A stretch of 64,000 nucleotides of DNA from Patescibacteria group bacterium (GCA_028687045.1 JAQUAW010000001.1:2034-66033), one strand, 5' to 3'; positions 6,934-47,775 are shown, counted from the first letter of the stretch. Notes: a model not told the origin generated them from the letters alone. A program made the numbers and translations.

Positions 6934-6966
6934 GGGTCTACAGATCCATCGCTCCGCTCAGGATAA
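6934..6966 (-). repeat. Y-type repeat, the inverted partner of 6758..6803
   Basis: Reverse complement is TTATCCTGAGCGGAGCGATGGATCTGTAGACCCT. Confidence 0.65.
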
Positions 6967-23832: not shown

Positions 23833-25086
23833 CTATTTTAATAATTCATCAATTGCAATAATTTTAGCTTCACTTTCATTACGTTTTTTAATTTCAACAG
23901 AATCTTGTGCCAAAGTCTTTGGACTTATGATGACACGAAGAGGAATACCAATTAAATCACTATCGGCAAACTTCTCCCCTGCTCGCACACCAATTCTATC
24001 ATCATACAAAACTTCTTTGCCTTGTTTTGTCAAAGTTTCATATAGTTCATCAGCTTTCTTCACATCAGCTTCTTCGCTACAAAGTGAAACAAGATGAATT
24101 TGGAATGGTGCGACGCTCTCTGGCCAAACAAGACCTTTTTCATCAGCAAAGCGCTCAACAATCACTCCCATCAAACGAGTAACACCAATTCCATAAGATC
24201 CTAGATGTACATATTTTTTTTCACCATTTTCGTCTGTAATATAAAGATTCATTTGTTCAGATTTTTTGGTACCAAAATTAAAAATATTTCCCACTTCAGC
24301 TGTTTTGACTTCTTCTAATTCATCACGAGTTACACCCAAATCTTGCAAAACTTTGTCACTCAAAACTTCATTATTGATAGCTATCTTTTTATCACGATTG
24401 ATATAGATAACATCTTCGCCAGCATCGGTAATTGTTTGAAATTCGTGAGAGAACTGTGTGAAGGCTCCACCAGAAGCAAAAGTAACAAAAGTATCGTCAC
24501 CTAGTCCAACACGTTCAAATACGCGCATATAAGCATCTATCACACCTTGATAAAATTTTTCATGTTGTTCTGCATCTAAGCTGTATGAATATAAATCTTT
24601 CATGACAAATTCACGACCACGCAAAATACCTGATTTTGCTCTTAGTTCATTACGCATTTTTGTTTGAAATTGATAAACATAAGCAGGTAAATCTTTGTAA
24701 CTAGAAATGTAATTTTTCATCATTTCACTAATAGGTTCTTCGTGTGACCAACCAAAACCGACTTCTGTGCCATTTTTTAATTTAGATTTGAACCAGACAT
24801 CCACATTTTCATCACTCCAGCGATCGGTATTTTCCCAAAGTTCTTTTCTTTGAAGACTAGTCATGATGAGTTCTTGTCCTCCAACAGCATTCATTTCTTC
24901 ACGAATAATTTGTTTTATTTTTTCAAGTACACAAATACCTAATGGTAGATAAGCATAAGCACCGGCCATTTCTTTGTAAATATATCCTGCGCGTGTCAGA
25001 AATTCTGCATTTTTTGACACTTCATCAGCAGGCGCTTCTTTGCGAGTTTTGGTAAATAATTGTGATTGTTTCATATGTTTTATCAT
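23833..25086 (-). CDS. proS: Prolyl-tRNA synthetase (short, archaeal/eukaryal-like form)
   Basis: 417 aa with class II motifs. Lacks the long bacterial insertion domain. Confidence 0.8.
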   Translation of the reverse strand: MIKHMKQSQLFTKTRKEAPADEVSKNAEFLTRAGYIYKEMAGAYAYLPLGICVLEKIKQIIREEMNAVGGQELIMTSLQRKELWENTDRWSDENVDVWFKSKLKNGTEVGFGWSHEEPISEMMKNYISSYKDLPAYVYQFQTKMRNELRAKSGILRGREFVMKDLYSYSLDAEQHEKFYQGVIDAYMRVFERVGLGDDTFVTFASGGAFTQFSHEFQTITDAGEDVIYINRDKKIAINNEVLSDKVLQDLGVTRDELEEVKTAEVGNIFNFGTKKSEQMNLYITDENGEKKYVHLGSYGIGVTRLMGVIVERFADEKGLVWPESVAPFQIHLVSLCSEEADVKKADELYETLTKQGKEVLYDDRIGVRAGEKFADSDLIGIPLRVIISPKTLAQDSVEIKKRNESEAKIIAIDELLK

Positions 25087-25087
25087 A

Positions 25088-25116
25088 TTGAGCGAAGCGA
25101 AATATCTTTCTTAAGG
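25088..25116 (+). repeat. X'-type repeat at the proS start
   Basis: TTGAGCGAAGCGAAATATCTTTCTTAAGG. Confidence 0.6.
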
Positions 25117-25227: not shown

Positions 25228-25253
25228 GGAAAGATTCTTCGCTCCGCTCAGAA
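25228..25253 (-). repeat. X'-type repeat, the inverted partner of 25088..25116 (about 110-bp spacer)
   Basis: GGAAAGATTCTTCGCTCCGCTCAGAA, the reverse complement of TTCTGAGCGGAGCGAAGAATCTTTCC. Confidence 0.6.
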
Positions 25254-26194: not shown

Positions 26195-29134
26195 TCAAAG
26201 CTGTCTAAACTCACATATCTCCTTAAAATCACAATACTGACAAACATGTTTATTTGGGGTGGCTTTGAAATCCCCTTTTTGGATTCGTTCCATCGCGTCA
26301 AACAGCTTAGCTTCTAACTTTTCTTTGTCTTTGTCTGTACCTACAAAAGACATTTTCTTGTTTTCATTTAAATAAAAGAAAGTTAATTTGTCTATCTTTC
26401 CTAAATTTTGGTATTGTGGCAAAGTTTCCACAGCAATTTGATAAATAAGCAATTGTTGTTTGTCGTCAATTGTTAGTTTATCTTTTGGTGTACCAGTCTT
26501 ATAATCTATAATCTCCAATTTATTATCTTCCACAGCATCAATTCTATCTATTCTACCTTTGACAAAGTATTCCCCTATTTTGATTTTAAATCCGCCTTCA
26601 ATTGTCACTGGGATTGTCCAATTATTTTCTTGTGATTTGTAAAATTCTTTGAGTAATTCTTCACCTTTGGCAAAATATTCTTCTCTTTGGTTTTTACTCT
26701 TGTACCAATCAGGGATCCATTTTCTTTTGTAAATTGCGAGTAATTCTTCTTCATTTGGAATTTTTATTTTGCCCGTACTTTTGTTTTCGGTAACAGTCTC
26801 AAACAAAGATACTTGCTTAGCACTATTCATATCTTGTACTTTTTCATAAAATTCTTGCAAAGTCCCGTGAATAGTATTACCAAAACTAAAATGTGGACTA
26901 CCTTTACTTGGCAAATTCAAAACGTAAGCCAACTTGTAATTGTAAGGGCACTTTTGGTAAGTACTAATACGAGAATAAGAAAATATTTTTGGTGGAATGT
27001 ATTCTATTTCTTCCTCATCATTTTCTATTTGCGTATTTAGTTTTTTTATTTCTTGCATCAGAGTTTGTTCTTTTTCAACAAGTTTTTTTTCTTTATTATC
27101 GAAATCAAGCTCAGCCAAAAAGCGACTTATTTTCTTGGCTCTAGTTCCACCATAACTACTCGCACTTGTCAAAAATAATCTTTGTTTGGCACGAGTCACT
27201 GCCACATAGAAAAGACGACGCTCTTCCTGATAATGCAAATCATTGTTTTCCAAAAACTTTTCTCTAATAAGTTCATCTGGCAAAGCTATTCCTTCACTCT
27301 TGCGTCTAGTTGGAAATCTTTCTTCTACCAAATTTACAATGAAAACATTTTTGTATTCTAGACCTTTTGAACCATGAATAGTGATGATATTGACTGAGTC
27401 TGGTGTATCTTTGATTTGATTTATTTTGCCACCGTCCCCTGATTCGATGATGAATTCATAATTCTCGACAAAACCAGCCACATGGGCTCCAGGTACATTT
27501 TCTTCGTAAGTCCGAATAAGATCAAAAAATTGTTTCAAATGATAAATTTGTCTGATAACGTCTTTGTTTCCTTTATTTTCTTCAATAGTCAAATATGACA
27601 AATAACCAATGCTTTCCATAAATTGATAAAGCAAACTGGTTGGCTTTTCAAATTTACTTTGCTTGATTCCTTCGTGACAGGCGTTTAATAATTTGTTAGC
27701 CATTTCTATCGCGTGAGTAGACAAAAATAATTCTTGAGCTCGCTTGAGTGTTTCATAATAAGACATACTTTTTCTCTTGGCTGTACTTGTCACTTTTTGC
27801 AAATCGTTTTGACTAAATTCCAAAAACGGCATTTTTAGCAAACGAAAAAATGCTTTGTCATCATAAATATTAGTCAGAAGTGTGAGGAAATTGAAAGCAT
27901 CAATCACAATATCTTGACGATAAAGCCCTGCTGAAGCAAGATACTCAAAAGGAATGCCAAAGCTCTCCAAAGCGTTGCTAAATGGCTCTACGTGAGAATT
28001 GGCACGAACAAGAATTGCGAAATCATCCCAATTACTATCTTTATCATTTTCTTTTATTTCCACTATTTTGTTTATCACTCCTACTACTTCTTCATCAAGT
28101 GTTTCATAGTGTAAATGTTCTATTTGAGTGTGCAAATCTTTGAGACCACTTTCCAATCTTTTACTAATTTGTAATTTTTCTTCTAGACGATGTGGATTAT
28201 TATTTTTGATAGAGTTGTAAGCCAAATCCAAGATTTCTTGACCAGAACGATAATTGTCTGTCAGAACAATATTTTTGGCATTAGGATAATCTGTTTTGAA
28301 ATTCATGATGATAGCAACATTGGAACCACGAAAAGAATAGATAGCTTGGTCATCATCCCCTACTACTGTCAGTTTATTATTTTCGCCTGCTAACAATTTT
28401 ACCAATTGATATTGCGCCCAATTGACATCTTGAAATTCATCTACCATTATATATTTAAATCTTTTTTGTAATTTTTTGAGTACGTTTGGTCTGTCTTGCA
28501 AAAGTTTGACTGCATAAAAAATAATATCACCAAAATCCATTGACTCATTATCCAACAATAATTTTTGATATTTATTATAGGCATCAGCCAACTCAATCAA
28601 TCTATTTTTTTCTTGTTTTTCAGCTTCGTCTTTGTCCAAAATCAAAGACTTTACATAATCCAAATAAGCTTGAGGTGTTATCATTTCATCTTTGGCTTTG
28701 GAAAAGTGTGTAAGAAGTTCATGAATATAACGATTTGGACTACCCATTGGTCGATAATAATCAAAATTAAAATCATAAATATGTTCTCGCAAAAGCAACC
28801 AAGCGTCGGTCTCATTTAATAATTTGAAATGATTTGGTAGACCAATTTCAAGACCATATTCTTCCAAAACTTTTTGACAAAAACTATGAAATGTAGAAAT
28901 TTGCATTTCAGTATAATTGGCTTCAATCAGGTCGTCTACTCTATCTTGCATTTCTTGTGCTGCTTTGTCAGTAAAAGTCAAAGCCAAAATTTCTTCGGGC
29001 AAAGCCAATTTTTGCTCGACAATGTGAGCAATTTTTTTGGTAATGACGGTAGTTTTGCCAGTACCAGCACCAGCAATAATCAACAAATTACCATCGTTGT
29101 ATTCTATGGCTTCTTTTTGGTTTTTATTTAACAT
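26195..29134 (-). CDS. UvrD/PcrA-type superfamily-1 helicase fused to a C-terminal PD-(D/E)XK nuclease with a Cys cluster (AddA/RecB-like)
   Basis: N-terminal GAGTGKTT Walker A. C-terminal RIDRIDAV..IIDYKTG plus CQYCDFKEIC. Confidence 0.75.
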   Translation of the reverse strand: MLNKNQKEAIEYNDGNLLIIAGAGTGKTTVITKKIAHIVEQKLALPEEILALTFTDKAAQEMQDRVDDLIEANYTEMQISTFHSFCQKVLEEYGLEIGLPNHFKLLNETDAWLLLREHIYDFNFDYYRPMGSPNRYIHELLTHFSKAKDEMITPQAYLDYVKSLILDKDEAEKQEKNRLIELADAYNKYQKLLLDNESMDFGDIIFYAVKLLQDRPNVLKKLQKRFKYIMVDEFQDVNWAQYQLVKLLAGENNKLTVVGDDDQAIYSFRGSNVAIIMNFKTDYPNAKNIVLTDNYRSGQEILDLAYNSIKNNNPHRLEEKLQISKRLESGLKDLHTQIEHLHYETLDEEVVGVINKIVEIKENDKDSNWDDFAILVRANSHVEPFSNALESFGIPFEYLASAGLYRQDIVIDAFNFLTLLTNIYDDKAFFRLLKMPFLEFSQNDLQKVTSTAKRKSMSYYETLKRAQELFLSTHAIEMANKLLNACHEGIKQSKFEKPTSLLYQFMESIGYLSYLTIEENKGNKDVIRQIYHLKQFFDLIRTYEENVPGAHVAGFVENYEFIIESGDGGKINQIKDTPDSVNIITIHGSKGLEYKNVFIVNLVEERFPTRRKSEGIALPDELIREKFLENNDLHYQEERRLFYVAVTRAKQRLFLTSASSYGGTRAKKISRFLAELDFDNKEKKLVEKEQTLMQEIKKLNTQIENDEEEIEYIPPKIFSYSRISTYQKCPYNYKLAYVLNLPSKGSPHFSFGNTIHGTLQEFYEKVQDMNSAKQVSLFETVTENKSTGKIKIPNEEELLAIYKRKWIPDWYKSKNQREEYFAKGEELLKEFYKSQENNWTIPVTIEGGFKIKIGEYFVKGRIDRIDAVEDNKLEIIDYKTGTPKDKLTIDDKQQLLIYQIAVETLPQYQNLGKIDKLTFFYLNENKKMSFVGTDKDKEKLEAKLFDAMERIQKGDFKATPNKHVCQYCDFKEICEFRQL

Positions 29135-29164
29135 ACTGAGCGGAGCGAAGTATCTTTCCTAAGG
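29135..29164 (+). repeat. X'-type repeat at the helicase-nuclease start
   Basis: ACTGAGCGGAGCGAAGTATCTTTCCTAAGG. Confidence 0.6.
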
Positions 29165-29283
29165 AAAATATCAATAATAAAAAAAAACTTCATCTATATT
29201 AAAATTGTTTAAGCTAGTATTATTCTACTACAATTCTTCAAAAAAACAAAATCTCCCCAACTAAGAGAGATTCTATTCCGCGT

Positions 29284-29320
29284 ATATCCGCGTAAATATC
29301 CGTTTAATCTGCGTTTTTAA
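29284..29320. repeat. Four phased TCCGCGT-like units with a 10-11-bp period
   Basis: TCCGCGTatatCCGCGTaaataTCCGTTTaaTCTGCGT. Related units occur at 46213..46239 and 19271..19287. Confidence 0.5.
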
Positions 29321-29463
29321 ACTCCACAATTACATCCACCACAACAACTGTCTTCTTTTTCTGTTTCCTCGTCACAAGCGCAAAAACCTTCATTATTGCA
29401 ACAGGTATCTTCTTGCTTTGGCTCTTCTTGTGAATCTTTTTCTTCTTTTGTTTCGTCTGACAT
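29317..29463 (-). CDS. Candidate 48-aa micro-protein: acidic N-terminus and a C-terminus with 8 Cys (…TCCNNEGFCACDEETEKEDSCCGGCNCGV). Not in the ORF track because it is under 60 aa.
   Basis: The ATG lies 13 bp downstream of the stop of 29477..30676 on the same strand, and the frame is open for 147 nt. Confidence 0.35.
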   Translation of the reverse strand: MSDETKEEKDSQEEPKQEDTCCNNEGFCACDEETEKEDSCCGGCNCGV

Positions 29464-29476
29464 ATATTTATTTTAG

Positions 29477-30676
29477 TTATTTAAGTAAATTTGGATACTT
29501 TTGAAAAAACATCTCCAAAACCTGACCATTTAGTCTGTAAACTTGATTTTCCTCGTCTTTCGTTACCCACATAGTATCTAGCAAATTTTGCATTATGCCT
29601 TCATTACTTAATGCAAAAGGCAGTTTTTTTCCCTGCATTATTTTTTTCAAAACATCCCTTTCTTCATCATTAAAAGTTTTTTGAAAAACTTGTCTATAAT
29701 GGTTAAATATGTTGTCAAAGTTTCTCTCTATTCTTTCAATGACATCTTCCATATCACTAGCCGTATAATTTAATTTCTTTACGTCAACAGAACAAAATTC
29801 AGCCAAAAATTCATTGACAAAATAATTTATTTCTCTAGCTTTACCACCGGTAAACTCGTAAATTTTTTCTATGGCATCAGGGGCAAAAGTAAGATAGCTC
29901 CCTTCCAAGTCTTTTTCTACTAATAATCTTGTCTCTTCCAAAGTAAGTGGTCTAATATAAAATTCTTGATAATCCTCACCAAATATTTTTTGTAACATCT
30001 TATTATTTTCTATATCTACAAAATGCAATACCAAAGCTATCTGCAGTTCATCCAAATTACCTAAACTTGCGATATATCTCAAAAATCCCTCATTATCTAT
30101 AACATTGACTACCTCATCAATGGCTATAAAACATTTAATATTATTATCTTTTAGATATTGATTTAAATACTCAAACGGTGTTTGTCCACTTTCTGTAATT
30201 TTTTCTCTTATTTCCTCAATACTAGCTTGTTTACCTTGTTCAATCTCTTTTTGACGAATAAATTTACAAACTTCATACAATCCAAATCGTTTTTTAAAAT
30301 AGTCTAAACTACTATCTGAAAGAATCGGAATAGCGTCAAACTTGATAGAATTATCTGCACCAAAGTCATTGACCAAGGAATTCAACATACTACTTTTGCC
30401 AATCCTTTTGAGACCTCTTATTGCTACATTTTGTCCAGCGAGTAAAGTATCTTGAATTTTCTTTTCTTGATCCAGACGAACAATACTTCTTTCTATACTG
30501 GCTTCACGTGTAATTCTTTCTCTTGTTTTTTCAAGATGAACTTCAAAAATTTCAGGTGATAATCTTGCTCTTACTTCTTCTAAAGTCAGTTCTTTTTCTT
30601 GTTGCTCAGTACTTTCATTCATTGTTAGTTTTTCTTCCTCTGGCACAAAAGGAAGATAATTATCACCTGTACCCAT
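29477..30676 (-). CDS. AAA+/P-loop ATPase of unknown function
   Basis: Walker A IRGLKRIGKSSML and Walker B CFIAIDEV. 399 aa. Confidence 0.55.
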   Translation of the reverse strand: MGTGDNYLPFVPEEEKLTMNESTEQQEKELTLEEVRARLSPEIFEVHLEKTRERITREASIERSIVRLDQEKKIQDTLLAGQNVAIRGLKRIGKSSMLNSLVNDFGADNSIKFDAIPILSDSSLDYFKKRFGLYEVCKFIRQKEIEQGKQASIEEIREKITESGQTPFEYLNQYLKDNNIKCFIAIDEVVNVIDNEGFLRYIASLGNLDELQIALVLHFVDIENNKMLQKIFGEDYQEFYIRPLTLEETRLLVEKDLEGSYLTFAPDAIEKIYEFTGGKAREINYFVNEFLAEFCSVDVKKLNYTASDMEDVIERIERNFDNIFNHYRQVFQKTFNDEERDVLKKIMQGKKLPFALSNEGIMQNLLDTMWVTKDEENQVYRLNGQVLEMFFQKYPNLLK

Positions 30677-30733
30677 AATATAAAAAATATAGTTGATTTA
30701 TGAAACTATAATATCATCTCTATAATACCCAAG

Positions 30734-32518
30734 TCAAGCCATAAAACCACCAACTTGAATATCCCACAAATTACGATAAATACCATTTTTTTTCTTCAAA
30801 AGTACTTTGTGTGAACCTTGTTCAAGAATTCCACCTTGTTCTATCACCAAAATTCTATTTGAATTCATAATAGTCGAAAGTCTGTGTGCGACGATAATGA
30901 CAGTCTTACCTTTCATCAGATTTCCCAAAGCATCTTGGATAAGCTTTTCTGACTTAGAATCTAAACTAGAAGTTGCTTCGTCCAAAATCAAAATTGGGGA
31001 ATTTTTTAGTATTGCTCGAGCTATAGCTACGCGCTGTCTTTCACCGCCCGAAAGCTTGATACCTCTTTCTCCTACCAAAGTATTGTAACCATCTGCCAAA
31101 TTCAAAATAAAATCATGAGCATTGGCTTGCTTGGCAACAGACATCACTTCTTCATCACTAGCATCTGGTTTAGCATAACGAATATTTTCCATGATACTTC
31201 TATGAAAAAGCATCGGGTCTTGTGGCACAAGACTGACATTTTGCCATAAACTTTCTTGCGTACACTTGGCAATGTTTTGTCCATCTATCAGAATTTTTCC
31301 ACCAGAAATATCATGTTGACGTAAAAGCAATTTTACAATAGTAGACTTCCCTGCACCTGAGGAACCAACGAGGGCTATTTTTTCTTGAGGCTTGATTACC
31401 AAATCCATTTTTTTGATTATTTCTCTAGTTTTGTTGTAAGCAAAAGAAACTTCTTTGAATTCTATTTTACCTGTCGTAACTTGTAATTTTTTGGCATTTT
31501 TGACATCTTGTATGTCATAAGGCATATTTAGTATCTCAGTCATTTCTTCGGCGTCAGCCAGTGATTCATAAAAATCTCTAATTACACGACCAAAGCCAAA
31601 AAACTTTTCAAAAATAATAATAAGATAAGATTGAATCAAAATAAAATCACCAACTGTAATACTACCAGCTTGCCAAACTTTGACAGCATAAAACAACATC
31701 ACGATTTCCAACAAAATCATCAACATCCATTGTATACCATCAAACCAAGTGGAAATGTCCCAAGAAAATTTTCTTATTTTCCTTAGATCTTCTGTTTTTT
31801 GTTCAAATTCTTTACACTCTCTACCATAACCAACCAACAACTTTACATTGGTATTATTAGTAAAAGAATCAGCCAAAAAAGCTCCAACCTTGGAATCTAG
31901 CTGACTTCTCTCAAAATCATATTTTAATTTGAATTTACTAAAAAAGTAACTAGTCAAAACAAAGATGAATATCCAAGAAATTATTATTAAAGCAAAAAAC
32001 TTGTTACGACTAAATAAGACAATAGAAATAAGTGTAACATTGATAATGATAGGCAAAAGATCCCAAATTATTCTATCTGAAATTCTATCAAAAGCTTGTA
32101 CAAATCTACCAACTTTTTTTACCAGAGAACCTACGAAGCTGTTGTTGAAAAAAGAAAAAGAATGTTTGTGAACTTTGGAAAAACAAGCATCATTCAAATC
32201 TTTTAGACTGTCTGTGCTAAACTTTATGTACAAAAAAGCCATGACACGGATAAAAAACCACTGCAAAATTTTTATACCCAAAATAATAAATAATGTGGTA
32301 TAGAGAATCTCAACATTAGGATTAGTAGACAAGACATCAAAAAACTTTTTGTACCAATAAGGAGCCAATATTGAAAAAGCATCACCAATCAATAACAACA
32401 AAAACATAGACATAAAGCTCCATTTGTATTTCCAAGCTTGTTGCCAATAAATTTTCAAAGTTATTTTGGTATTATTTTTCATAAGTAATTTATTTTTTTT
32501 GCAATAAAAAAACGTCAA
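30734..32518 (-). CDS. ABC exporter with fused permease and ATPase (MsbA-like half transporter)
   Basis: Six-TM N-terminal half, then GSSGAGKST Walker A, LSGGERQRVAIARAIL signature and ILILDEATS Walker B. Confidence 0.85.
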   Translation of the reverse strand: MTFFYCKKNKLLMKNNTKITLKIYWQQAWKYKWSFMSMFLLLLIGDAFSILAPYWYKKFFDVLSTNPNVEILYTTLFIILGIKILQWFFIRVMAFLYIKFSTDSLKDLNDACFSKVHKHSFSFFNNSFVGSLVKKVGRFVQAFDRISDRIIWDLLPIIINVTLISIVLFSRNKFFALIIISWIFIFVLTSYFFSKFKLKYDFERSQLDSKVGAFLADSFTNNTNVKLLVGYGRECKEFEQKTEDLRKIRKFSWDISTWFDGIQWMLMILLEIVMLFYAVKVWQAGSITVGDFILIQSYLIIIFEKFFGFGRVIRDFYESLADAEEMTEILNMPYDIQDVKNAKKLQVTTGKIEFKEVSFAYNKTREIIKKMDLVIKPQEKIALVGSSGAGKSTIVKLLLRQHDISGGKILIDGQNIAKCTQESLWQNVSLVPQDPMLFHRSIMENIRYAKPDASDEEVMSVAKQANAHDFILNLADGYNTLVGERGIKLSGGERQRVAIARAILKNSPILILDEATSSLDSKSEKLIQDALGNLMKGKTVIIVAHRLSTIMNSNRILVIEQGGILEQGSHKVLLKKKNGIYRNLWDIQVGGFMA

Positions 32519-33236
32519 TAGTATTATACACCTTTTGACGTTTTTTTAAAATAGTTTTTTTAAAAAATAAAAAACAATAATAAAAAATAATTATTGTTTA
32601 TCTTTAAAATCTTATAATTATTATTTACAAAATAAATTATAAAAAATTCAAATTACAATAATTAACAAATCTTTTGTCAAAATCAATCTAAATTTTTGTT
32701 TCAAAAAACCAAAACTTAGATTGATTGAGACGACGTACCTCCTTTGTTAAAGTAATCTCAATCCTCCTTTTGTTCTTCTTTTTTTTCGATGAGCCCTCAC
32801 AATGGGGGCTTTACCGAAGAATGGTGTTGAATGGCTCTGCCAAACACCACCACAAAGCTGAACCGAGCTACAAGAGGATGATCGGAACCCTCCACTTTAA
32901 ACTCGTATATACCAGACGTAACAAAAATAAACAGAAAATTATGATGCACTTCTTCGACTACTCGGCACTGTGGCCGCTTAGCCAAAAAGTGAATCATATA
33001 CATCAAAACGCCTTCATGCGTTTTGATGTGTTGACCACAAAAAGTTGGAAGAAAAGAGATACTACGTAGGTGATAAAGTCTGCAAACAGTCTTGATATCT
33101 CCACTGTTCACAGCACCAACACACCTCCCTAAAAAAGCTGTATTGCGCCGCCACGACTCTGTCGCGGCAGCTAAAAATAGAAACAAAGCCAAGAAAGGCA
33201 CTGTTGCCAAAAGATCCACCTGGACCTCCTAGAAAT

Positions 33237-33458
33237 GCGACTTCACAACGTGAGAACTTCTCACGCCATTCAGTCGCTGGTTTCTATCTAAAAAATAGAC
33301 AAAAATCAGCAACTGAATTTTTTGGCACGCACAAAATCATACTCTCCGACATATCCACTGTCAATTACTATATCCTTGACAGAGTGTAATTTGTCGTTCT
33401 ATTTGTAAAAGTTCTCTATACAAAAAAATACACCTAATTTAATAGATGTATTTTTTTT
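33237..33458. repeat. Copy 1 of a 210-220-bp direct repeat. It contains a GC-rich nested hairpin, a degenerate TTGACA palindrome and a terminal hairpin with a T run.
   Basis: About 90% identical to 33650..33866. Starts GCGACTTCACAACGTGAGAACTTCTCACGCCATTCAGTCGC. Confidence 0.7.
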
Positions 33459-33649
33459 GCCCCTCCTTTCCTCCTTTGTGTATGTGAATGGTTGGGCAAT
33501 TACCTCAAGCGGATCCCCAATAGCGGGAATCTCCACCTGAAGCCCCTGATTTCCGGCGGCTGTTTAGCCAGCCGGAAACCATCAACAACACAATGACGGG
33601 AGACACTCCCGCCAAAAACTCCAAAAAGCTCATGTGAGCCTCCGAAACG

Positions 33650-33866
33650 GCGACTTCGCAACGTGAGTACTTCCCACGCCATTCAGTCGCTAGTTTCTAT
33701 CTAAAAAATAGACAAAAATCAGCAACTGAATTTTTTAGCACGCACAAAATAATACTCTTTGACATATCCACTGTCAATTACTTTACCCTTGACAAATTTC
33801 AATTTGTCGTTCTATTTGTAAAAGTTATTTATATAAAAAAATACACCTATTTTCTAGGTGTATTTT
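33650..33866. repeat. Copy 2 of the same direct repeat. It contains the perfect palindrome CTTGACAAATTTCAATTTGTCG and the terminator TACACCTAttttcTAGGTGTATTTT.
   Basis: Aligns to copy 1 with a 413-bp period. Confidence 0.7.
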
Positions 33867-33885
33867 AATTAATTTATTTTAATTT

Positions 33886-35160
33886 CTAAACAAGATAACG
33901 TAAGAAAATATAGACAGTACACATCACCAAAGCTACAAAAGTCAAAGGTAATGCCATCTTCATATACTCCCAAAAACCAATACCATGACCTTCTTTACTA
34001 GCAATACCACTTACTACAACATTGGCTGAAGCACCAACCAAGGTCGCATTTCCACCAATATCAGCACCAAGAGCCAATGCCCACCAAATTGGTGCCAAAG
34101 GTAGTCCTGCAATAGTTCCTAAATCTTTGACAAGTGGGATCATAGTAGCTACAAATGGAATATTATCAATTACAGCTGAAAATATAGCTGAACCCCACAA
34201 AACACTCAAAGTAGTAGCTGTCATGTTTCCACCAGTAAGATTTAGCAAACCTTCAGCCAACATACGAATAGCGCCAACTTCTTCTAGAGCTACAACCAAG
34301 ATGAAAAGTCCCATGAAGAAAAATATTGTAGTCCATTCTACTTCTTTCAAATGTTCTTCTGGATCATGCATGGTCAAAAGCAACATAAGAGCAGCACCAC
34401 CAAGAGCGATAGTAGCACCTTCTAAATGAGTTACACTATGGGTAAAAAATCCAACCAAAACTATAGCCAAGACAAATAATGCTTTTTTTAACAATTTTAC
34501 GTCAGACAAAGCTTCTCTTGGATTAAATTTTGCGATAGTAGCTTGTGCTTCTGCAGTAGCCACAAGTTGCTTGCGATAAATGAAAACCAAAAGTGCAATA
34601 GTAACAATAGAAACAAGAACAGAAATAGGTCCAAGATTAACCAAAAAATCATTGAAAGTAAGACCACTAGCACTACCAATAAGAATGTTTGGCGGATCTC
34701 CGATAAGAGTAGCTGTACCACCAATATTGGCCAACAAAATAGCACCTATAAGAAATGGCTTAGGGTGAATTTTCAAATTATGAGCAACCACAAAAGTGAC
34801 TGGTATCATAAGAAGTACAGTAGTCACATTGTCGAGCAAAGCAGAAAAAACAGCAACAATAGTTAGTAATAATATATATATTTTTACAGGGTTACCCTTA
34901 CCAACTTTGGTAGCCCAGATAGCCACATATTGAAACATACCACTGTGTTTGGCTATTCCCACAATAATCATCATACCAATCAAAAGGCCTAGAGTATTGA
35001 AGTCAATCCCCTCAATTGCTTTTTCTTGTGTCACAATACCAAGCAAAACCATCAATCCCGCACCAGCCATAGCAATGACAGTACGATGAATTTTTTCAGA
35101 GATGATAATAGCGTAAGTAGTAATAAAGACAACAAGTGTAATCCAAAAAAAGATTCCCAT
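33886..35160 (-). CDS. ArsB/NhaD-superfamily ion transporter permease
   Basis: 424 aa, about 10-12 TM helices, with a duplicated internal-repeat architecture typical of the ArsB/NhaD/CitMHS group. Confidence 0.65.
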   Translation of the reverse strand: MGIFFWITLVVFITTYAIIISEKIHRTVIAMAGAGLMVLLGIVTQEKAIEGIDFNTLGLLIGMMIIVGIAKHSGMFQYVAIWATKVGKGNPVKIYILLLTIVAVFSALLDNVTTVLLMIPVTFVVAHNLKIHPKPFLIGAILLANIGGTATLIGDPPNILIGSASGLTFNDFLVNLGPISVLVSIVTIALLVFIYRKQLVATAEAQATIAKFNPREALSDVKLLKKALFVLAIVLVGFFTHSVTHLEGATIALGGAALMLLLTMHDPEEHLKEVEWTTIFFFMGLFILVVALEEVGAIRMLAEGLLNLTGGNMTATTLSVLWGSAIFSAVIDNIPFVATMIPLVKDLGTIAGLPLAPIWWALALGADIGGNATLVGASANVVVSGIASKEGHGIGFWEYMKMALPLTFVALVMCTVYIFLRYLV

Positions 35161-35840: not shown

Positions 35841-37436
35841 TTATAAATCGTTTCCTGTATATGACATATTGAAACTTTTATTAATCAAAGGAAAATCTGG
35901 CACAATATTGTTCAAACCAGCCTCACCCAAAGCTGACCAGTTGACAAAGGAAGGATCTCTTGGAAATACTCTACTAATATTGCCTTGTGCGTCTGTAGCT
36001 ACGAAATAAGATATCTCTCCACGCCAACCTTCCACCATACTTACAGCATAAGCACTTTTTTGCAAAATAAGGCTAGTAATATTGGCTACAATAATCTCTC
36101 CCTCAGGTATTTTTTGCAAAGATTCTTGTACTATTTCCAATGATTTACGAATTTCTTTTAAACGAATCTGAAATCTAGCGTTGACATCACCCTCTTCTTC
36201 TACAGGTATTTGCCCCATAGAAACTTCGGCGTAAGCAGCATAAGGGTGATCAACACGTGTATCATGTTTTACACCTACAGCTCTACCAGCGACACCCAGA
36301 GTACCTTGGTTATTAGCTACTTCTAGAGAAATGATGCCTGTACCTTTTAGACGATTCAAAAGTGATGCACTATCTTCAGCGATAGCAATCACTTCTTCAA
36401 AATCTTTAGCAATTTTTATCAGTTCTTTACTTAGATAATCTTGTTCACTTTTGTTTAAATCTTTTTTTACACCACCAATAGTATTTACACTACGCAAAAA
36501 TCTACTTTTTGTTAATTTTTCATTTATTTGCATCATCATTTCACGCAAACGTGATCCATTGGCTCCACCAAAACTGAAACCAGTATCCATCATAATAGCT
36601 CCAATATCACCAAAATGATTAGCTAGTCTTTCAAGTTCAGCAAAAATGGTTCTCAAATACAAAGCACGTTTTGGCACTTCAATTCCAGCTAATTTTTCTA
36701 TAGTTTGACAAAAAGCTAAAGAATGACTAAAAGAACTATCACCAGAAATTTTTTCTGACAAACGTATCTTATTTTCCAAAGACAAAACTTCAAATAATTT
36801 TTCACTACCTTTGTGTACATATCCCAAACGTGGTTCAAGTTGCACAATACTTTCTCCAGCCATACTAAAACGAAAATGACCAGGTTCGATAATACCAGCA
36901 TGAATTGGTCCAACAGGAATTTCATAAATCCCCTCACCTTTTACTTCTTGAAATTCATATTTACCGGTTACTTCTTTCAATTTGGTTTTCCATTCAAAAT
37001 CTTTTCTAAGAGGAAAAACATTACTTGGATAATTTTCATGCAAAATAAGCGGTCTATTGTCTGGAATATCTGTAGCTACTAAACCAAAAAAAGTCTGAAT
37101 TCTTCTTTCGTAGTTTAATATTTCAGGTACAAGGTTAGCCAATGAAGGAAAATCAGTAGTATTTTTCAATTCAATAAAAGGACAGATAAAAAAATTATCA
37201 CCAGGTACAGCAAATAAATACCAAATTTTGAAAGCTCCTTTTTCTTTTCTTTCGTCTGTAGCGGTGACTAGCTTAAGTGAAAGTTTTTTTTGATTATGTA
37301 ACTCTCCTACAATTTCAGCTATTTGTGTAGAAGATACTTCGAAGATAGCCAAGTTATCGTGATACTCTACGTTAGCATTCTTTGGAAGGTATGATTGTAT
37401 TTTTTCTTTTATCATATTAGTATTGCAAAACAGCAT
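35841..37436 (-). CDS. Fused NuoC-like/NuoD-like subunit, homologous to the group-4 [NiFe]-hydrogenase large subunit but lacking the Ni-binding cysteines (Ehr large subunit-like)
   Basis: VGPIHAGIIEPGHFRF and LGYVHKGSEK are NuoD/HycE-like. The L1 position reads KISGDSSFSH where hydrogenases have RxCGxCxxxH. The C-terminus has no CxxC. Confidence 0.7.
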   Translation of the reverse strand: MLFCNTNMIKEKIQSYLPKNANVEYHDNLAIFEVSSTQIAEIVGELHNQKKLSLKLVTATDERKEKGAFKIWYLFAVPGDNFFICPFIELKNTTDFPSLANLVPEILNYERRIQTFFGLVATDIPDNRPLILHENYPSNVFPLRKDFEWKTKLKEVTGKYEFQEVKGEGIYEIPVGPIHAGIIEPGHFRFSMAGESIVQLEPRLGYVHKGSEKLFEVLSLENKIRLSEKISGDSSFSHSLAFCQTIEKLAGIEVPKRALYLRTIFAELERLANHFGDIGAIMMDTGFSFGGANGSRLREMMMQINEKLTKSRFLRSVNTIGGVKKDLNKSEQDYLSKELIKIAKDFEEVIAIAEDSASLLNRLKGTGIISLEVANNQGTLGVAGRAVGVKHDTRVDHPYAAYAEVSMGQIPVEEEGDVNARFQIRLKEIRKSLEIVQESLQKIPEGEIIVANITSLILQKSAYAVSMVEGWRGEISYFVATDAQGNISRVFPRDPSFVNWSALGEAGLNNIVPDFPLINKSFNMSYTGNDL

Positions 37437-38862
37437 TATTAATTAAAGTCTGCAAAAATGGTGGCAAATAGACACTCAAAATAACTATAATAGTAACAAA
37501 TAAAATTTGTGGAATAAACAACCAAATATTATTTTCACCTTTTTCAATATTGTCTGGTTTTTCTCCAAAAAACATAGCTGTAAAATGTTTCAAAAAACTT
37601 ACAAAAACTAAAGCGAGAAAAAACAGAGCAATCAAACTAACGACAGGATACTCTTTCATACCAGCTGACAAAATGTAAAGTTTGGTCATAAACATTCCAA
37701 ATGGTGGCACACCTGTCACAATCAGAAAACCAATAAGGGAAAGTACACCCGTCACAGGCAAGACTTTCAAAGCTCCTTTGACATTGAAAATTTTGGCAGA
37801 ACTATATTTCAATAACAAATTTCCTGTAGATAAAAAGAGTACGACTCTGACACAAGAATGATAAACAATATGAAGTATTGCTGCAAAAATACCTAATCCT
37901 CCAAAACCAAAACCAAGTGCCATTACACCGGCATTTTCAATACTAGAATAAGCAAGCAATCTTTTGTAATTTTTGGCATTGAACATAATCAAAGCTGAGA
38001 CAACAATAGACAATAGACCAAAAACAATCAATAGTGTTTGACTAAACAAAGGTCCAACGGCAATGTCTACAATAACCTTGTATCTAAGCATAATCACAAA
38101 AGCAATTGGCAACAAAGCGCCGGATAACAAAGCGCCTATAGGTGCTGGTGCTTTGCTATAAGCATCTGGTTTCCAAGTGTGCATTGGTACAAAACCAATC
38201 TTAGTACCATAACCAATAAGTACAAAAACAAAAGCAATTTTAGCAAGCAAGGGGTCAAGATGAATAGCATTACTAGTCAATGTTTGCCAGTCCACCAAAC
38301 CAACACTAGACAAATCAATAGAGGTAAAAAATAATAATGTTCCAAAAAATCCCAAAAGTAAACCAACAGAATTGATAATCAAATATTTCCAAGCTCCTTC
38401 AATCGCTGATGGTTTATTGTAAAAACTTATCAAAAAGGCAGTAGACAGTGTGGTAGCTTCAATAGAAATCCAAGCAAAAATAGGATTGCTAGAGGTAATT
38501 GCCAAAAACATCGCTACAAAAAACATATTCAACAAAACAAAATATTGTTTTACACGTGTAAAACCAATAATACTTTTTTGCATTTCTTGACGTAAATATT
38601 GTACAGAATAAATAGTAGTAGCAAAACCAACAAAACCAAGAACCAAGACAATAATAGCACCCAAAGAATCAATTGAAAAAAATCTTCCAGAACCTGGTGT
38701 ATAAATTCCCAATGAAGACACTTTTAGAGCTACTACAATAGACAACACCAAAGAAATTAATGAAGAAACTACTGATACAACTTCAATAACTACTTTTCTT
38801 TTAGAAAGAAGATTTATTATCGCTGCAATAAACAAAGTTATTATTATAAAAAAAATTTCCAT
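37417..38862 (-). CDS. NuoN/NuoM/MrpD-like antiporter-type membrane subunit
   Basis: 481 aa, about 14 TM helices, with family-typical motifs. Confidence 0.7.
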   Translation of the reverse strand: MEIFFIIITLFIAAIINLLSKRKVVIEVVSVVSSLISLVLSIVVALKVSSLGIYTPGSGRFFSIDSLGAIIVLVLGFVGFATTIYSVQYLRQEMQKSIIGFTRVKQYFVLLNMFFVAMFLAITSSNPIFAWISIEATTLSTAFLISFYNKPSAIEGAWKYLIINSVGLLLGFFGTLLFFTSIDLSSVGLVDWQTLTSNAIHLDPLLAKIAFVFVLIGYGTKIGFVPMHTWKPDAYSKAPAPIGALLSGALLPIAFVIMLRYKVIVDIAVGPLFSQTLLIVFGLLSIVVSALIMFNAKNYKRLLAYSSIENAGVMALGFGFGGLGIFAAILHIVYHSCVRVVLFLSTGNLLLKYSSAKIFNVKGALKVLPVTGVLSLIGFLIVTGVPPFGMFMTKLYILSAGMKEYPVVSLIALFFLALVFVSFLKHFTAMFFGEKPDNIEKGENNIWLFIPQILFVTIIVILSVYLPPFLQTLINNAVLQY

Positions 38863-38866
38863 ATTT

Positions 38867-39514
38867 TTAATCTTTTAATTTTTTCATTGAAGAAACATTC
38901 AATGTTCCAAAATGTTTATACAACATTGAAATAAAAATTGAGGCAATCATAATCCAAATAAAAATATTAAAAATAATTCCTAATTGAAGAGAAGCCGACT
39001 GCTCTAACTCAGCAAAAACAGCAAACATCACGATACTATTTTCAAAAGACAAAATACCAATAATTTGTGACAAAGCCCCTTTACGATTGACTATCAAAAA
39101 CAAAGAAAGAAACATCGATGACAAAGCAAGAGATAACAGCATTTGATGATCTGACACAATACTAGTCAAAGGAACAAACTTTTGTGAATGAGCTATAAAA
39201 ATTAAAACAGCAATAACAATTAAAGTAATTGGTGTATTTAGATAAGTACTAACAGAAAAAGACAAAGCATATTTTTTGATCAGACTAATAAAAAACTTTG
39301 GTGCTACAATAACTTTGACAATCAACATCACAAGTATAACTAATAACATCCACAAATCTTTGGTCTCAAAAAAAGAATTTAATAATATAATAACAACTAC
39401 TAATGATTGCAAGGCATAAGTATACACAGCTGAAACGTTTTTCTTCATTATAAGCAAAAAGACAACAGATAATAGAACTATCTCAGATAAAAATTGTAAA
39501 GTTAATAGATTCAT
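38867..39514 (-). CDS. Small polytopic membrane subunit of the same module, possibly NuoJ/K- or MbhD/HyfE-like
   Basis: 215 aa and hydrophobic. Embedded between the NuoH-like and NuoN-like genes. Confidence 0.4.
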   Translation of the reverse strand: MNLLTLQFLSEIVLLSVVFLLIMKKNVSAVYTYALQSLVVVIILLNSFFETKDLWMLLVILVMLIVKVIVAPKFFISLIKKYALSFSVSTYLNTPITLIVIAVLIFIAHSQKFVPLTSIVSDHQMLLSLALSSMFLSLFLIVNRKGALSQIIGILSFENSIVMFAVFAELEQSASLQLGIIFNIFIWIMIASIFISMLYKHFGTLNVSSMKKLKD

Positions 39515-39547
39515 AAATTATCACTATAAAAAACAAAGTTAGATGTT

Positions 39548-40483: not shown

Positions 40484-40487
40484 AAAA

Positions 40488-42539: not shown

Positions 42540-42540
42540 A

Positions 42541-46241: not shown

Positions 46242-47729
46242 TTATTTCTTAAATTCTTCACAAACACCTTTCAAATCCGCAATGATACTATCATCCCATT
46301 CACCTTTAGAGATTTTTTCTAACAATGATTGGTGACTACCTCTAACAAAATCCAAAAATTTTTCTTCTGTTTTCAAAATATCAGTAACAACAACATCATC
46401 GAAATAACCATTATCTACTGCAAAAATAGAAGCAACTTGATCTTCAACATGCATCGGACTATATTGAGGTTGTTTCATAAGTTCTACTACTCTAGCACCT
46501 CTATCCAATTGTTTCTTTGTTTCGACATCTAGATCACTAGCAAATTGAGCAAAAGCTTCAAGTTCACGATATTGAGCAAGAGCAAGCTTAATTTTACCAG
46601 AAACTTTTTTCATTGGTTTAGTTTGAGCAGCACCACCTACACGAGAAACAGAGATACCGACGTTGACAGCTGGACGAATACCCTTGAAAAACAAATCTGT
46701 TTCCAAGAAAATTTGTCCATCAGTAATAGAAATTACGTTGGTTGGAATATAAGCAGTCACGTCAGAAGCTTGTGTTTCAATAATAGGAAGAGCGGTAATA
46801 GATCCACCACCATGTTCTTTGTTCAAGTTACAAGCACGTTCCAAAAGACGGGAATGAAGATAAAAAACATCTCCAGGATAAGCCTCACGTCCTGGTGGGC
46901 GTCTCAAAAGCAAAGAAATTTCACGATAAGCCCAAGCTTGTTTTGTCAAATCATCATAAACGATTAAGACATCTTCACCTTTATCAGCGAAGTATTCAGC
47001 CATAGTTACACCAGCATACGGAGCAATAAAAGACATCGCAGCAGGATCAGATGCACCAGCTACCACTACAGTTGTGTATTCCATAGCACCATTTTCTTCA
47101 AGTTTAGCTACGATACGAGCTACTTTTGACTCTTTTTGTCCAATAGCTACATAAATACATTTCATGTTTTGACCTTTTTGGTTGATGATAGCATCAATTG
47201 CAATAGCTGTTTTACCAGTTTGACGATCACCAATGATAAGCTCACGTTGTCCACGTCCAATTGGAATCATAGCGTCAATAGCTTTGATACCAGTCTGTAC
47301 AGGAACACCAACAGGTTGACGACTCATCACACCAGGAGCTGTTTTTTCGATAGGATAAAATTCTTTTGTAACAATATCACCTTTACCATCAATAGCTTGT
47401 CCAAGAGCGTTTACCACACGACCAATCACTTTTTCACCAACTGGTACTGACAAAATTCTACCAGTTCTCTTGACAGTATCACCTTCTTTGATTTTTTCAT
47501 ATTCACCCAAAATCATAGCACCTACAGTTTCTTCTTCCAAATTCAAAGCTACACCCATAATACCGCCTGGGAATTCAAGCATCTCTTGAGATTGACAACT
47601 TGTCAGACCACTCATACGAGCAATACCGTCCCCTACTTCAATAACAGTACCGACTTCTTCTACTTCTACTGTTTTTTGAAAAGCAGAAATATGTTTTTTT
47701 AGTTCTTCGATTACTTGATTTGTAGACAT
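46242..47729 (-). CDS. atpA: F1 ATP synthase alpha subunit
   Basis: [11 protein letters not shown] Walker A; 495 aa. Confidence 0.95.
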
Positions 47730-47744
47730 ATATTTTTTACTAAT

Positions 47745-47775
47745 CTTGAGCGGAGCGAAAGATCTGTAGACCCTG
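47745..47775 (+). repeat. Y-type repeat upstream of the atpA start
   Basis: CTTGAGCGGAGCGAAAGATCTGTAGACCCTG. Confidence 0.6.

What the first reader, a model, noticed from the sequence alone, without database searches (positions are those of the whole stretch)
29317..29463. Unannotated 48-codon ORF encoding an acidic N-terminus and a CC…C.C…CC..C.C Cys cluster
The frame is open for exactly 147 nt in an otherwise unexplained gap. It starts 13 nt after the upstream stop on the same strand and ends just before a repeat array. Eight Cys are arranged as two CCx(n)CxC units. This looks more like a metal-binding or disulfide-rich peptide than chance, although TGT and TGC are cheap codons in AT-rich DNA.
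Basis: seen in the sequence. Interest (0 to 1): 0.55.

Follow-up and report, generated by a model that had tools for sequence, protein, structure and literature searches.

The report
Conserved cysteine-rich mini-protein in Magasanikbacteria
The 48-codon reading frame is a real gene that was missed in annotation; it encodes a small, very acidic protein with eight cysteines that is found only in one group of ultra-small groundwater bacteria, and it looks like a new metal-binding (metallothionein-like) peptide, although metal binding has not been shown.

Summary
The ORF exists as described, on the minus strand (29463->29317, 48 aa, 8 Cys). It is not chance. Of 358 small ORFs in the window, it alone has more than 5 Cys. 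At least 10 distinct alleles occur in Candidatus Magasanikbacteria genomes and metagenomes. In these alleles the frame, ATG, stop and Cys positions are conserved. All indels are in frame, conserved Cys and Gly codons show synonymous changes, and pN/pS is 0.35 in the Cys domain.

The family consensus is M-S-E-E-T, an acidic stretch, CC-x3-4-G-x-C-x-C, a second acidic stretch, then CCGGCxCGV-stop. Alleles carry 8 or 11 Cys, no His and almost no aromatic residues.

The gene has its own promoter, whose -35 box overlaps the stop codon of a conserved ABCB-type exporter gene, and a conserved terminator. Between promoter and peptide lie 0-2 variable genes; here it is a 399-aa P-loop NTPase. One recombination breakpoint falls inside the peptide ORF.

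The peptide has no hit in Pfam, NCBIfam, PDB or PADLOC. No radical-SAM or other maturase gene lies nearby, and there is no leader or signal sequence.

Best reading: a new, clade-restricted metallothionein-like thiolate peptide. Metal binding is inferred from sequence only, and the SCIFF/RiPP reading is rejected. Interest is moderate.

The parts
29317..29463 (-). Small-protein CDS (48 aa plus TAA). The N-terminal half is acidic. The Cys domain is CC-x5-C-x-C ... CCGGCNCGV-COOH.
   Evidence: Searches give the ORF. Searches give homologues. Searches show the conserved frame, in-frame indels, synonymous TGT/TGC and GGN changes, and pN/pS of 0.35 in the Cys domain.
29383..29463 (-). 5' half of the CDS (codons 1-27). 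It is fast-evolving or exchanged. It is only 63% identical to the L015 and L119 alleles, although the flanking DNA is 95-97% identical.
   Evidence: segment identities; pN/pS about 1 in the N-terminal part.
29317..29382 (-). 3' half of the CDS (codons 28-48 plus stop). This is the conserved Cys domain, 95% identical at DNA level to L015, L119 and L144.
29275..29316 (-). Conserved 3'-UTR element AAACGCAGATTAAACGGATATTTACGCGGATATACGCGGAAT, with about four imperfect 10-nt direct repeats. Its function is unknown.
   Evidence: (repeats). It is conserved in the window, L015, L144, L096, L013 and L018. It is absent in L014 and L088.
29239..29274 (-). Intrinsic-terminator-like hairpin (AATCTCTC / GGGAGATT stem) followed by a U-tract.
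   Evidence: MFE -24.9 kcal/mol, z -3.26. One search shows the hairpin kept in 7 of 7 loci, with one pair varying as UG, CG and UA. The simple terminator scan did not flag it.
30708..30737 (-). Sigma-70-type promoter: TTGACT, 18 nt, TG-n-TATTAT. The -35 box overlaps the TGA stop of the ABC gene. It drives the NTPase gene plus the peptide.
   Evidence: 10 of 12 matches plus TG. The same position holds TTGACA-17-TAGTAT in L015 and TTGACA-17-TATTAT in L018. TTGAC is conserved across 9 loci.
29477..30676 (-). Variable insert gene: a 399-aa P-loop NTPase (weak ATPase_2 / AAA_22 match) lying between the promoter and the peptide. This slot is empty in L015, L018, L144 and L088 and holds other genes in other loci.
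   Evidence: Pfam, below cutoff; only one distant homologue; locus comparison.
30734..32518 (-). ABCB-type half-transporter (exporter: transmembrane domain plus nucleotide-binding domain, no peptidase domain). It is the conserved upstream neighbour of the peptide in 9 of 10 allele contexts.
   Evidence: families; synteny; the best solved half-transporter is NaAtm1 at 314 bits, against 306 for Sav1866.

Best explanation
The ORF is a genuine small-protein gene that is not annotated in this genome. It belongs to a family restricted to Candidatus Magasanikbacteria (Patescibacteria/CPR). In the window it is transcribed from a promoter whose -35 box overlaps the stop codon of the upstream ABC exporter gene, together with an inserted NTPase gene, and transcription ends at a conserved hairpin terminator. 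The product is about 5 kDa, strongly acidic (computed pI about 4.05, which may be the calculator's floor) and probably unstructured on its own. It has 8 conserved Cys (11 in some alleles) arranged as CC, CxC and CCGGCxC motifs. I infer that it is a metallothionein-like peptide that binds soft metal ions (Zn, Cu(I), Cd or Ni type) through cysteine thiolate clusters in the cytoplasm, for buffering, storage or detoxification. It may work with, or be handed to, the neighbouring ABCB/Atm1-like exporter. Shown: the gene is real, conserved, under purifying selection in the Cys domain, and has its own expression signals. Inferred: metal binding, and any link to the exporter.
For: - **Gene reality.** The ORF is the only small ORF of 358 with more than 5 Cys. 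Homologues were found by an exhaustive HMMER search (64% identity, E 2e-5) and a profile search. Ten distinct DNA alleles were recovered. All indels are in frame, including 15-nt and 27-nt ones. Invariant Cys, Gly and Val codons show synonymous flips. In the Cys domain pN/pS is 0.35, with an excess of third-position changes (13, 11, 21).
- **Translation context.** The lack of a Shine-Dalgarno sequence is normal here: only 1 of 47 genes has one.
- **Expression signals.** The promoter sits at the same position in the window, L015 and L018. The terminator hairpin is kept in 7 of 7 loci.
- **Metallothionein-like features.** Mass is 4.6-5.4 kDa, Cys is 16.7-22%, there is no His, and 9 of 10 alleles have no aromatic residue. 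The Cys count stays at 8 even when one Cys moves: the P0006 allele loses the CxC Cys and gains one in CNCCV. Some alleles add a modular N-terminal CxxCxC unit, giving 11 Cys. The AlphaFold2 model has no confident fold (pLDDT 60.5), as expected for a metal-free thiolate peptide.
- **Motif-level parallels, by eye only.** The E. coli SlyD metal-binding tail reads ...GCCGG...GCCGGKGNGGCGCH-COOH. The HypB N-terminus MCTTCGCG has CxxCxC spacing like the 11-Cys alleles.
- **Alternatives not indicated.** No maturase, signal peptide or leader is present.
- **Neighbouring exporter.** The best solved half-transporter match of the neighbouring ABC gene is an Atm1-type heavy-metal exporter.
Against: - There is no sequence homology to any metallothionein family or any solved structure. 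BLASTP finds no alignment to the SlyD tail.
- The strongly acidic composition is unusual for metallothioneins.
- No metal-sensing regulator, P-type ATPase or other metal-homeostasis gene lies within about 10 kb in any locus.
- The nearby permease is not a true ArsB (124 bits against a cutoff of 457).
- The nearby complex-I-like large subunit lacks the NiFe cysteine ligands, so no metal is singled out.
- The tight, repeated adjacency to an ABC exporter could instead mean that the peptide is exported.
- The low-confidence structure model is uninformative rather than positive evidence.
Confidence: 0.45

Rival explanations
1. The peptide is a cargo of the adjacent ABCB-type exporter. It would be secreted unmodified as an extracellular metal scavenger, thiol carrier, signal or antagonistic peptide.
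For: The ABC gene and the peptide stay together while both outer flanks change. The upstream gene is an ArsB-like permease, an LtaS-like protein, or a 456-480-aa or 170-aa protein. The downstream gene is UvrD-like or LtaS-like. The peptide promoter is fused to the ABC stop codon. Pairs persist down to about 72% ABC identity (L088 and L096).
Against: The peptide has its own promoter rather than being translationally coupled to the ABC gene. The ABC protein has no C39 peptidase domain, and the peptide has no double-glycine leader or signal sequence (the sequence itself). L014 keeps an intact 8-Cys peptide with no ABC gene nearby. The peptide is highly anionic and hydrophilic, unlike known leaderless bacteriocins (established knowledge). 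All loci come from one narrow clade, so inherited gene order can explain much of the adjacency.
Confidence: 0.2
2. It is an intracellular Cys-rich peptide with a function other than metallothionein: a gene-encoded low-molecular-weight thiol or redox buffer, a sulfur or Fe-S carrier, or a small regulatory zinc-binding protein.
For: It shares the features listed for the best explanation: conserved Cys, cytoplasmic character and strong expression signals. A gene-encoded thiol buffer would fit if these reduced-genome bacteria lack glutathione synthesis. That is an assumption, not a tested point.
Against: The window allele has no ferredoxin-type or rubredoxin-type CxxC spacing. No redox partner gene (thioredoxin or glutaredoxin reductase) is adjacent. 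The sequence gives nothing specific for these roles.
Confidence: 0.15
3. It is a RiPP precursor (SCIFF/ranthipeptide-like, lanthipeptide-like or similar), with the acidic N-terminus as leader and the Cys-rich part as core.
For: The size (about 45 aa) and the C-terminal Cys cluster resemble SCIFF superficially. The N-terminus varies while the C-terminus is conserved. An ABC exporter gene is adjacent.
Against: No SCIFF or other precursor model matches. No radical-SAM/SPASM, LanB/C/M, YcaO or MNIO gene occurs in any of the 10 loci, within up to 10 kb each side where the contig allows. In RiPPs the leader is usually the conserved recognition part, and here it is the fastest-evolving part.
Confidence: 0.05
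4. It is a regulatory leader ORF. Ribosome stalling at the many Cys codons would sense Cys-tRNA supply and control the terminator, and so the downstream gene.
For: It is a short ORF with 8 Cys codons, followed within 45 nt by a conserved element and a terminator, upstream of another gene on the same strand.
Against: Non-Cys residues (GG, the terminal GV, the G before CxC) are conserved with synonymous changes. The ORF is three times longer than typical leader peptides. The downstream gene is a UvrD/PD-(D/E)XK helicase-nuclease, or an LtaS-like gene in L096, not a cysteine-metabolism gene. The downstream gene has its own TAGAAT -10 box. No convincing antiterminator structure appears.
Confidence: 0.03
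5. It is a chance ORF in AT-rich DNA and not a gene.
For: TGT and TGC are cheap codons in AT-rich DNA. The ORF is not annotated in this MAG, and no family model matches it.
Against: See: conserved frame, start, stop and Cys positions across 10 alleles, in-frame indels, and pN/pS of 0.35 in the Cys domain. NCBI annotates three relatives as hypothetical proteins.
Confidence: 0.02

Closest known systems
Metallothioneins (operational class; for example fungal Cu-thioneins and plant type 1/2 metallothioneins with N-terminal CCGG/CxC motifs, the latter recalled from memory)
   Same: Mass below 10 kDa, 17-22% Cys, CC / CxC / CxxC motifs, no His, essentially no aromatic residues, no stable predicted fold, and modular gain of Cys motifs between alleles.
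   Different: There is no detectable homology to any Pfam metallothionein family or PDB entry. The peptide is strongly acidic, with about 30% Asp plus Glu. It has a strictly conserved C-terminal CCGGCxCGV-COOH. Metal content is unknown.
Bacterial metallothioneins BmtA/SmtA (Pfam PF02069)
   Same: They are small bacterial Cys-rich proteins presumed to handle metals.
   Different: The family model does not match. BmtA/SmtA use a zinc-finger-like fold with His ligands (established knowledge), and this family has no His.
C-terminal metal-binding tail of E. coli SlyD and the N-terminal CxxCxC nickel site of HypB
   Same: The SlyD tail contains GCCGG twice and ends in CGCH-COOH, against CCGGCNCGV-COOH here. 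HypB begins MCTTCGCG, the same CxxCxC spacing as the M(S/Q)NTCQNC(D/N)C start of the 11-Cys alleles.
   Different: The resemblance is at motif level only. BLASTP finds no alignment. SlyD and HypB are large proteins with His-rich tails. No Hyp genes are nearby, and the nearby hydrogenase-like large subunit lacks the Ni ligands.
SCIFF / ranthipeptide precursors (TIGR03973) with a radical-SAM maturase
   Same: About 45 aa with a C-terminal cluster of Cys.
   Different: No model hit and no maturase gene. The Cys spacing differs, with vicinal CC pairs.
Atm1/HMT1-type ABCB exporters working with thiol-metal complexes (glutathione or phytochelatin conjugates)
   Same: The neighbouring exporter's best solved half-transporter match is NaAtm1. 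A peptide rich in Glu, Cys and Gly resembles phytochelatin in composition (established knowledge).
   Different: The score margin over Sav1866 is trivial (314 against 306 bits). No substrate-site analysis was done. A functional link between exporter and peptide is speculative.

Membership tests
Metallothionein (operational definition) | Low molecular mass (below about 10 kDa) | tested here: met
   4.6-5.4 kDa for four representative alleles.
Metallothionein (operational definition) | High Cys content (about 15-30%) in conserved CC, CxC and CxxC motifs | tested here: met
   16.7-22% Cys, with seven invariant Cys columns across 10 alleles (an eighth is displaced in one allele); every allele has 8 or 11 Cys.
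Metallothionein (operational definition) | Few or no aromatic residues and His | tested here: met
   No His in any allele. One Phe in the window allele and none in the other nine.
Metallothionein (operational definition) | Binds several metal ions in metal-thiolate clusters | not testable with these tools
   This needs metal-loaded protein analysed by ESI-MS, ICP-MS or spectroscopy.
Known metallothionein sequence families (Pfam Metallothio_*, BmtA/SmtA PF02069) | Significant match to a family model or to a solved metallothionein structure | tested here: not met
   No Pfam hit for 7 members even at E up to 10, apart from one spurious hit. No NCBIfam hit. No PDB hit with the profile at E up to 10.
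SCIFF / ranthipeptide precursor | Match to the precursor model (TIGR03973) | tested here: not met
   NCBIfam scan at E up to 1 returned no families.
SCIFF / ranthipeptide precursor | Adjacent radical-SAM/SPASM maturase gene | tested here: not met
   No Radical_SAM family appears among the called genes of L014-L027 within 10 kb each side, nor among the variable neighbours scanned.
Double-glycine-leader bacteriocin with a peptidase-containing ABC exporter | A GG-type leader on the peptide and a C39 peptidase domain on the exporter | tested here: not met
   The ABC protein has only ABC_membrane and ABC_tran domains. It scores far below the cutoffs of the bacteriocin ABC models. The peptide has no LSxxELxxIxGG-type leader (the sequence itself).
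Amino-acid-sensing leader peptide (attenuator) | Short ORF with regulatory codons, alternative terminator/antiterminator structures, and downstream genes for that amino acid | tested here: not met
   A terminator is present. But the downstream gene is a helicase-nuclease or an LtaS-like gene, non-Cys residues are conserved at protein level, and no antiterminator was found.
Known anti-phage defence systems (PADLOC) | Match of the peptide or of the inserted genes to a defence-system model | tested here: not met
   No hits for the peptide, the 399-aa NTPase, or the 586-, 327- and 250-aa inserts. The 324-aa insert gives only weak P-loop-level hits.

The most novel reading that the evidence does not exclude
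The peptide may be a ribosomally encoded functional analogue of glutathione or phytochelatin for these reduced-genome bacteria. It would be an acidic Glu/Cys/Gly-rich thiol carrier that captures soft metals (or sulfur species) and is exported by the Atm1-like ABC transporter whose stop codon carries its promoter. The promoter-to-peptide interval would also act as a recombination 'landing pad' where lineages swap P-loop NTPase and orphan genes, using the conserved ABC 3' end and the peptide's Cys-domain codons as homology arms.
Probability: 0.1. Interest if true: 0.7.

Novelty: new variant of a known kind. Interest (0 to 1): 0.45.

Why it matters
Small proteins are routinely missed in CPR/Patescibacteria genomes; this one is not annotated in its own MAG. 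Nothing found here addresses how these tiny, presumably host-dependent cells handle metals or thiols: two literature searches returned no paper linking CPR bacteria with metallothioneins, or Patescibacteria with cysteine-rich small proteins. A confirmed metal-thiolate peptide would add a new, sequence-unrelated family of bacterial metallothioneins. It would also give a compact 43-51-aa scaffold whose natural alleles carry 8 or 11 Cys. The mosaic locus further shows that gene cassettes are exchanged between Magasanikbacteria lineages at one precise spot.

Tried and rejected
- **Direct family searches with the peptide.** Pfam, NCBIfam, PADLOC and PDB gave nothing.
- **Word-indexed homologue search with the single peptide.** It found nothing. 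Only the exhaustive HMMER search and a later profile search worked.
- **Tracing orthologous loci through the 399-aa NTPase.** It has a single distant homologue (34% identity), whose locus has no Cys-rich ORF. The NTPase is therefore a variable insert, not a partner.
- **Structure prediction.** The model has pLDDT 60.5 and no fold, so no fold search was run.
- **Nickel-chaperone idea.** It was prompted by the neighbouring hydrogenase-like operon. The large subunit has only 3 Cys and no CxxC Ni ligands.
- **Arsenic idea.** It was prompted by the ArsB-like permease. The match to ArsB is far below cutoff and the best match is MamN-like.
- **False positives from the DNA pattern scans.** There were 52 of 56 in genomes, most of the metagenome matches, and all 7 in viral contigs. 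These are out-of-frame GC-rich matches, or the antisense strand of a 3081-aa repeat protein in L106.
- **An 806-aa RnfC protein sharing a 90% cluster with one allele.** This is a clustering artefact.
- **BLASTP of the peptide against the SlyD tail.** No alignment.
- **Rfam.** No hits at gathering threshold on the whole window, and only chance-level hits at E up to 1 over 29100-33950.
- **Literature.** Nothing on this family. One preprint notes that an unnamed Candidatus Magasanikbacteria protein shares a motif with the C-terminus of Drosophila MtnF (10.1101/2020.06.25.172213). No accession is given, so this is only a lead.

Full report
**1. Observation**

The ORF lies at 29317..29463 on the minus strand (ATG, 48 codons, TAA). 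It encodes MSDETKEEKDSQEEPKQEDTCCNNEGFCACDEETEKEDSCCGGCNCGV. Its ATG lies 13 nt after the stop of the preceding same-strand gene (29477..30676). A set of 10-12-nt direct repeats lies just 3' of its stop. Among 358 ORFs of 30-80 aa in all six frames of the window, it is the only one with more than 5 Cys. Cys is 0.58% of residues in the long ORFs and 16.7% here. The window is 32% G+C and comes from a Patescibacteria MAG. The neighbouring protein is identical to NCBI PHQ18_00155. The exact peptide sequence was not found in the protein collection that includes NCBI records, although gene callers found it on two Logan contigs.

**2. It is a real, conserved gene**

The word-indexed search found nothing. 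An exhaustive HMMER scan of 1.84 billion representative proteins found two relatives (44 aa with 64% identity and E 2e-5; 91 aa as called). A profile of these found five more. A degenerate DNA pattern for CCGGCxCxV-stop was then scanned in several collections:
- It hit only four of 185,579 GTDB species representatives in a true family context, all Candidatus Magasanikbacteria.
- It found further alleles in metagenomes.
- It found none on viral contigs.

Ten distinct DNA alleles give this consensus: M-S-E-E-T, an acidic stretch, CC-x3-4-G-x-C-x-C, a second acidic stretch, then CCGGC(N/D/S)C(G/C)V-stop.

The codon alignment supports coding function:
- Every indel is in frame, including a 15-nt TCQNC insertion and a 27-nt insertion.
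- The invariant Cys, Gly and Val columns carry synonymous TGT/TGC, GGT/GGA/GGC and GTT/GTA changes.
- In the Cys domain pN/pS is 0.35, and variable sites by codon position are 13, 11 and 21.
- In the acidic N-terminal part pN/pS is about 1.

The absence of a Shine-Dalgarno sequence is normal for this genome, where only 1 of 47 genes has one. NCBI already lists three relatives as 'hypothetical protein' (EKE07473.1, MFA7244823.1, MFA7314839.1). The family is therefore present in databases but unnamed.

**3. Locus anatomy**

The most common order seen (L015 and L018) is:
- complex-I-like operon
- CBS protein
- ArsB/CitMHS-superfamily permease
- ABCB-type exporter
- the peptide, 54 nt after the exporter
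- hairpin terminator
- UvrD/PD-(D/E)XK helicase-nuclease
- DciA

The ABC stop codon is embedded in a TTGAC(A/T) -35 box in all nine loci that have the ABC gene. The scan tool finds a promoter at this spot in three loci:

| Locus | Promoter |
|---|---|
| window | TTGACT-18-TGnTATTAT, 10 of 12 matches |
| L015 | TTGACA-17-TAGTAT |
| L018 | TTGACA-17-TATTAT, 11 of 12 matches |

After the stop codon comes a 42-nt element with ACGCGGATA-type repeats. It is conserved even in L096, whose ABC protein is only 72% identical. Then comes a hairpin plus U-tract that is kept in 7 of 7 loci, with UG, CG and UA variation at one pair.

Between promoter and peptide lie 0-2 variable genes:
- the 399-aa P-loop NTPase in the window
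- two paralogous NTPases (324 and 586 aa) in L119
- a 327-aa orphan in L096
- a 250-aa acidic orphan in L013, L123 and L189
- nothing in L015, L018, L144 and L088

L014 has lost the CBS, permease and ABC genes but keeps an intact peptide between a SnoaL-like gene and UvrD.

Segment identities show a mosaic between the window and L015:

| Segment | Identity, window vs L015 |
|---|---|
| ABC 3' end | 97% |
| leader | 67% |
| peptide 5' half | 63% |
| peptide 3' half | 95% |
| 3' UTR | 97% |
| UvrD 5' end | 97% |

One recombination breakpoint therefore lies inside the peptide ORF. The window allele is a chimera whose 5' half arrived with the NTPase insert.

**4. What it is not**

- The peptide has no Pfam, NCBIfam, PADLOC or PDB match.
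- No radical-SAM or other RiPP maturase occurs in any locus.
- The ABC protein has no C39 peptidase domain, and the peptide has no leader or signal sequence.
- The NTPase is not a conserved partner. Its only homologue sits in an unrelated locus with no Cys-rich ORF.
- The nearby 'hydrogenase-like' large subunit lacks the NiFe cysteines.
- The permease is not a true ArsB.

**5. Most likely function**

The peptide meets every sequence-checkable criterion of a metallothionein:
- Mass is about 5 kDa, and Cys is 17-22% in CC and CxC motifs (plus CxxC in the 11-Cys alleles).
- There is no His, and aromatic residues are essentially absent.
- The Cys number is held at 8, even when one Cys is relocated in the P0006 allele, or raised to 11 by a modular N-terminal CxxCxC unit. 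An odd count in four alleles argues against a fully disulfide-bonded secreted fold.
- AlphaFold2 gives no confident fold (pLDDT 60.5). This is compatible with a peptide that folds only around metal, but it is not positive evidence.

There are motif-level parallels with experimentally known metal sites. The E. coli SlyD tail reads GCCGG...GCCGGKGNGGCGCH-COOH. HypB begins MCTTCGCG. BLASTP finds no alignment to the SlyD tail, so these are analogies and not homology.

The neighbouring exporter's best solved half-transporter match is the Atm1-type heavy-metal exporter, by a trivial margin over Sav1866.

I therefore rank the readings as follows:

| Reading | Confidence |
|---|---|
| cytoplasmic metal-thiolate (metallothionein-like) peptide | about 0.45 |
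| exported cargo of the ABC transporter | about 0.2 |
| other intracellular thiol or redox role | about 0.15 |
| RiPP precursor | about 0.05 |
| Cys-sensing leader ORF | about 0.03 |
| chance ORF | about 0.02 |

**6. Novelty and verdict**

The gene is real and clade-restricted, with no known homologue outside Magasanikbacteria. By features it is a new variant of the metallothionein kind, unusually acidic and with an invariant C-terminal CCGGCxCGV. Its function is untested. Searches of the literature found nothing on this family. The only exception is a passing remark that an unnamed Magasanikbacteria protein shares a motif with the C-terminus of Drosophila MtnF (10.1101/2020.06.25.172213). Interest is moderate. 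The finding is solid and cheap to test, and the cassette-swapping locus is an added curiosity, but it does not overturn anything.

Noticed in passing
window 29464-30733 (the interval between the ABC stop and the peptide ATG); compare L015, L018, L096, L119, L013/L123/L189: This interval is a hot spot for gene exchange. It holds 0-2 unrelated genes in different lineages: P-loop NTPases of 399, 324 and 586 aa, and orphans of 327 and 250 aa. The same 57-nt promoter-leader (95-98% identical) precedes different insert genes in the window, L119 and L096, although the L096 ABC gene is only 84% identical at DNA level.
   Followed up: partly
window 29275-29316 (minus strand): A conserved 3'-UTR element has four imperfect 10-nt repeats (ACGCAGATTA / ACGGATATTT / ACGCGGATAT / ACGCGGAATA). 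It is better conserved than the peptide's N-terminal codons and travels with the peptide, not with the downstream gene: it is present in L096 and absent in L014 and L088. Its function is unknown; it could be a protein-binding or recombination site.
   Followed up: partly
window 29137-29154 (-), 25089-25106 (-), 25233-25250 (+), 47747-47764 (-), 6943-6960 (+): A GC-rich 18-nt motif, GATAYTTCGCTYCGCTCA, occurs 5 times against 0.01 expected. At three of the five sites (upstream of UvrD, the 417-aa gene at 23833..25086, and the gene at 46242..47729) it ends 2-17 nt before a start codon. It is also present upstream of UvrD in L014 and L015.
   Followed up: partly
window 32519-33885: A 1.4-kb stretch between the permease and the ABC gene has raised G+C (0.39-0.47, against about 0.31 around it). 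Its only ORF is a GTG-start 140-aa frame (32797..33219, minus strand), which is related to the SnoaL-like genes of L014 and L123. No Rfam family matches. The stretch is absent in L018.
   Followed up: partly
window 35841-43083 (minus strand): This is a complex-I / group-4-hydrogenase-like operon (Oxidored_q6, Proton_antipo_M, NADHdh, and a fused 30-kDa plus 49-kDa subunit). Its large subunit has only 3 Cys and no CxxC NiFe ligands, so it is unlikely to be a true hydrogenase.
   Followed up: partly
whole window: Only 1 of 47 long genes has a Shine-Dalgarno core upstream. Starts are preceded by A/T-rich tracts instead. No tRNA gene and no Rfam family at gathering score was found in 64 kb.
   Followed up: no
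L003 2043-3341 (upstream of the only homologue of the 399-aa NTPase): A 432-aa protein with many Cys and no Pfam match sits next to the distant NTPase homologue P0002, followed by a Fic/HTH gene. It is unrelated to the peptide family.
   Followed up: no
L106 3463-3606 (also L132, L142, L145, L171): The antisense strand of a 3081-aa repetitive protein gene reads ...GDCNCGDCNCGVCSCCGGCNCGV-stop. This mimics the family's C-terminus and is a false positive to exclude in any motif-based survey.
   Followed up: yes
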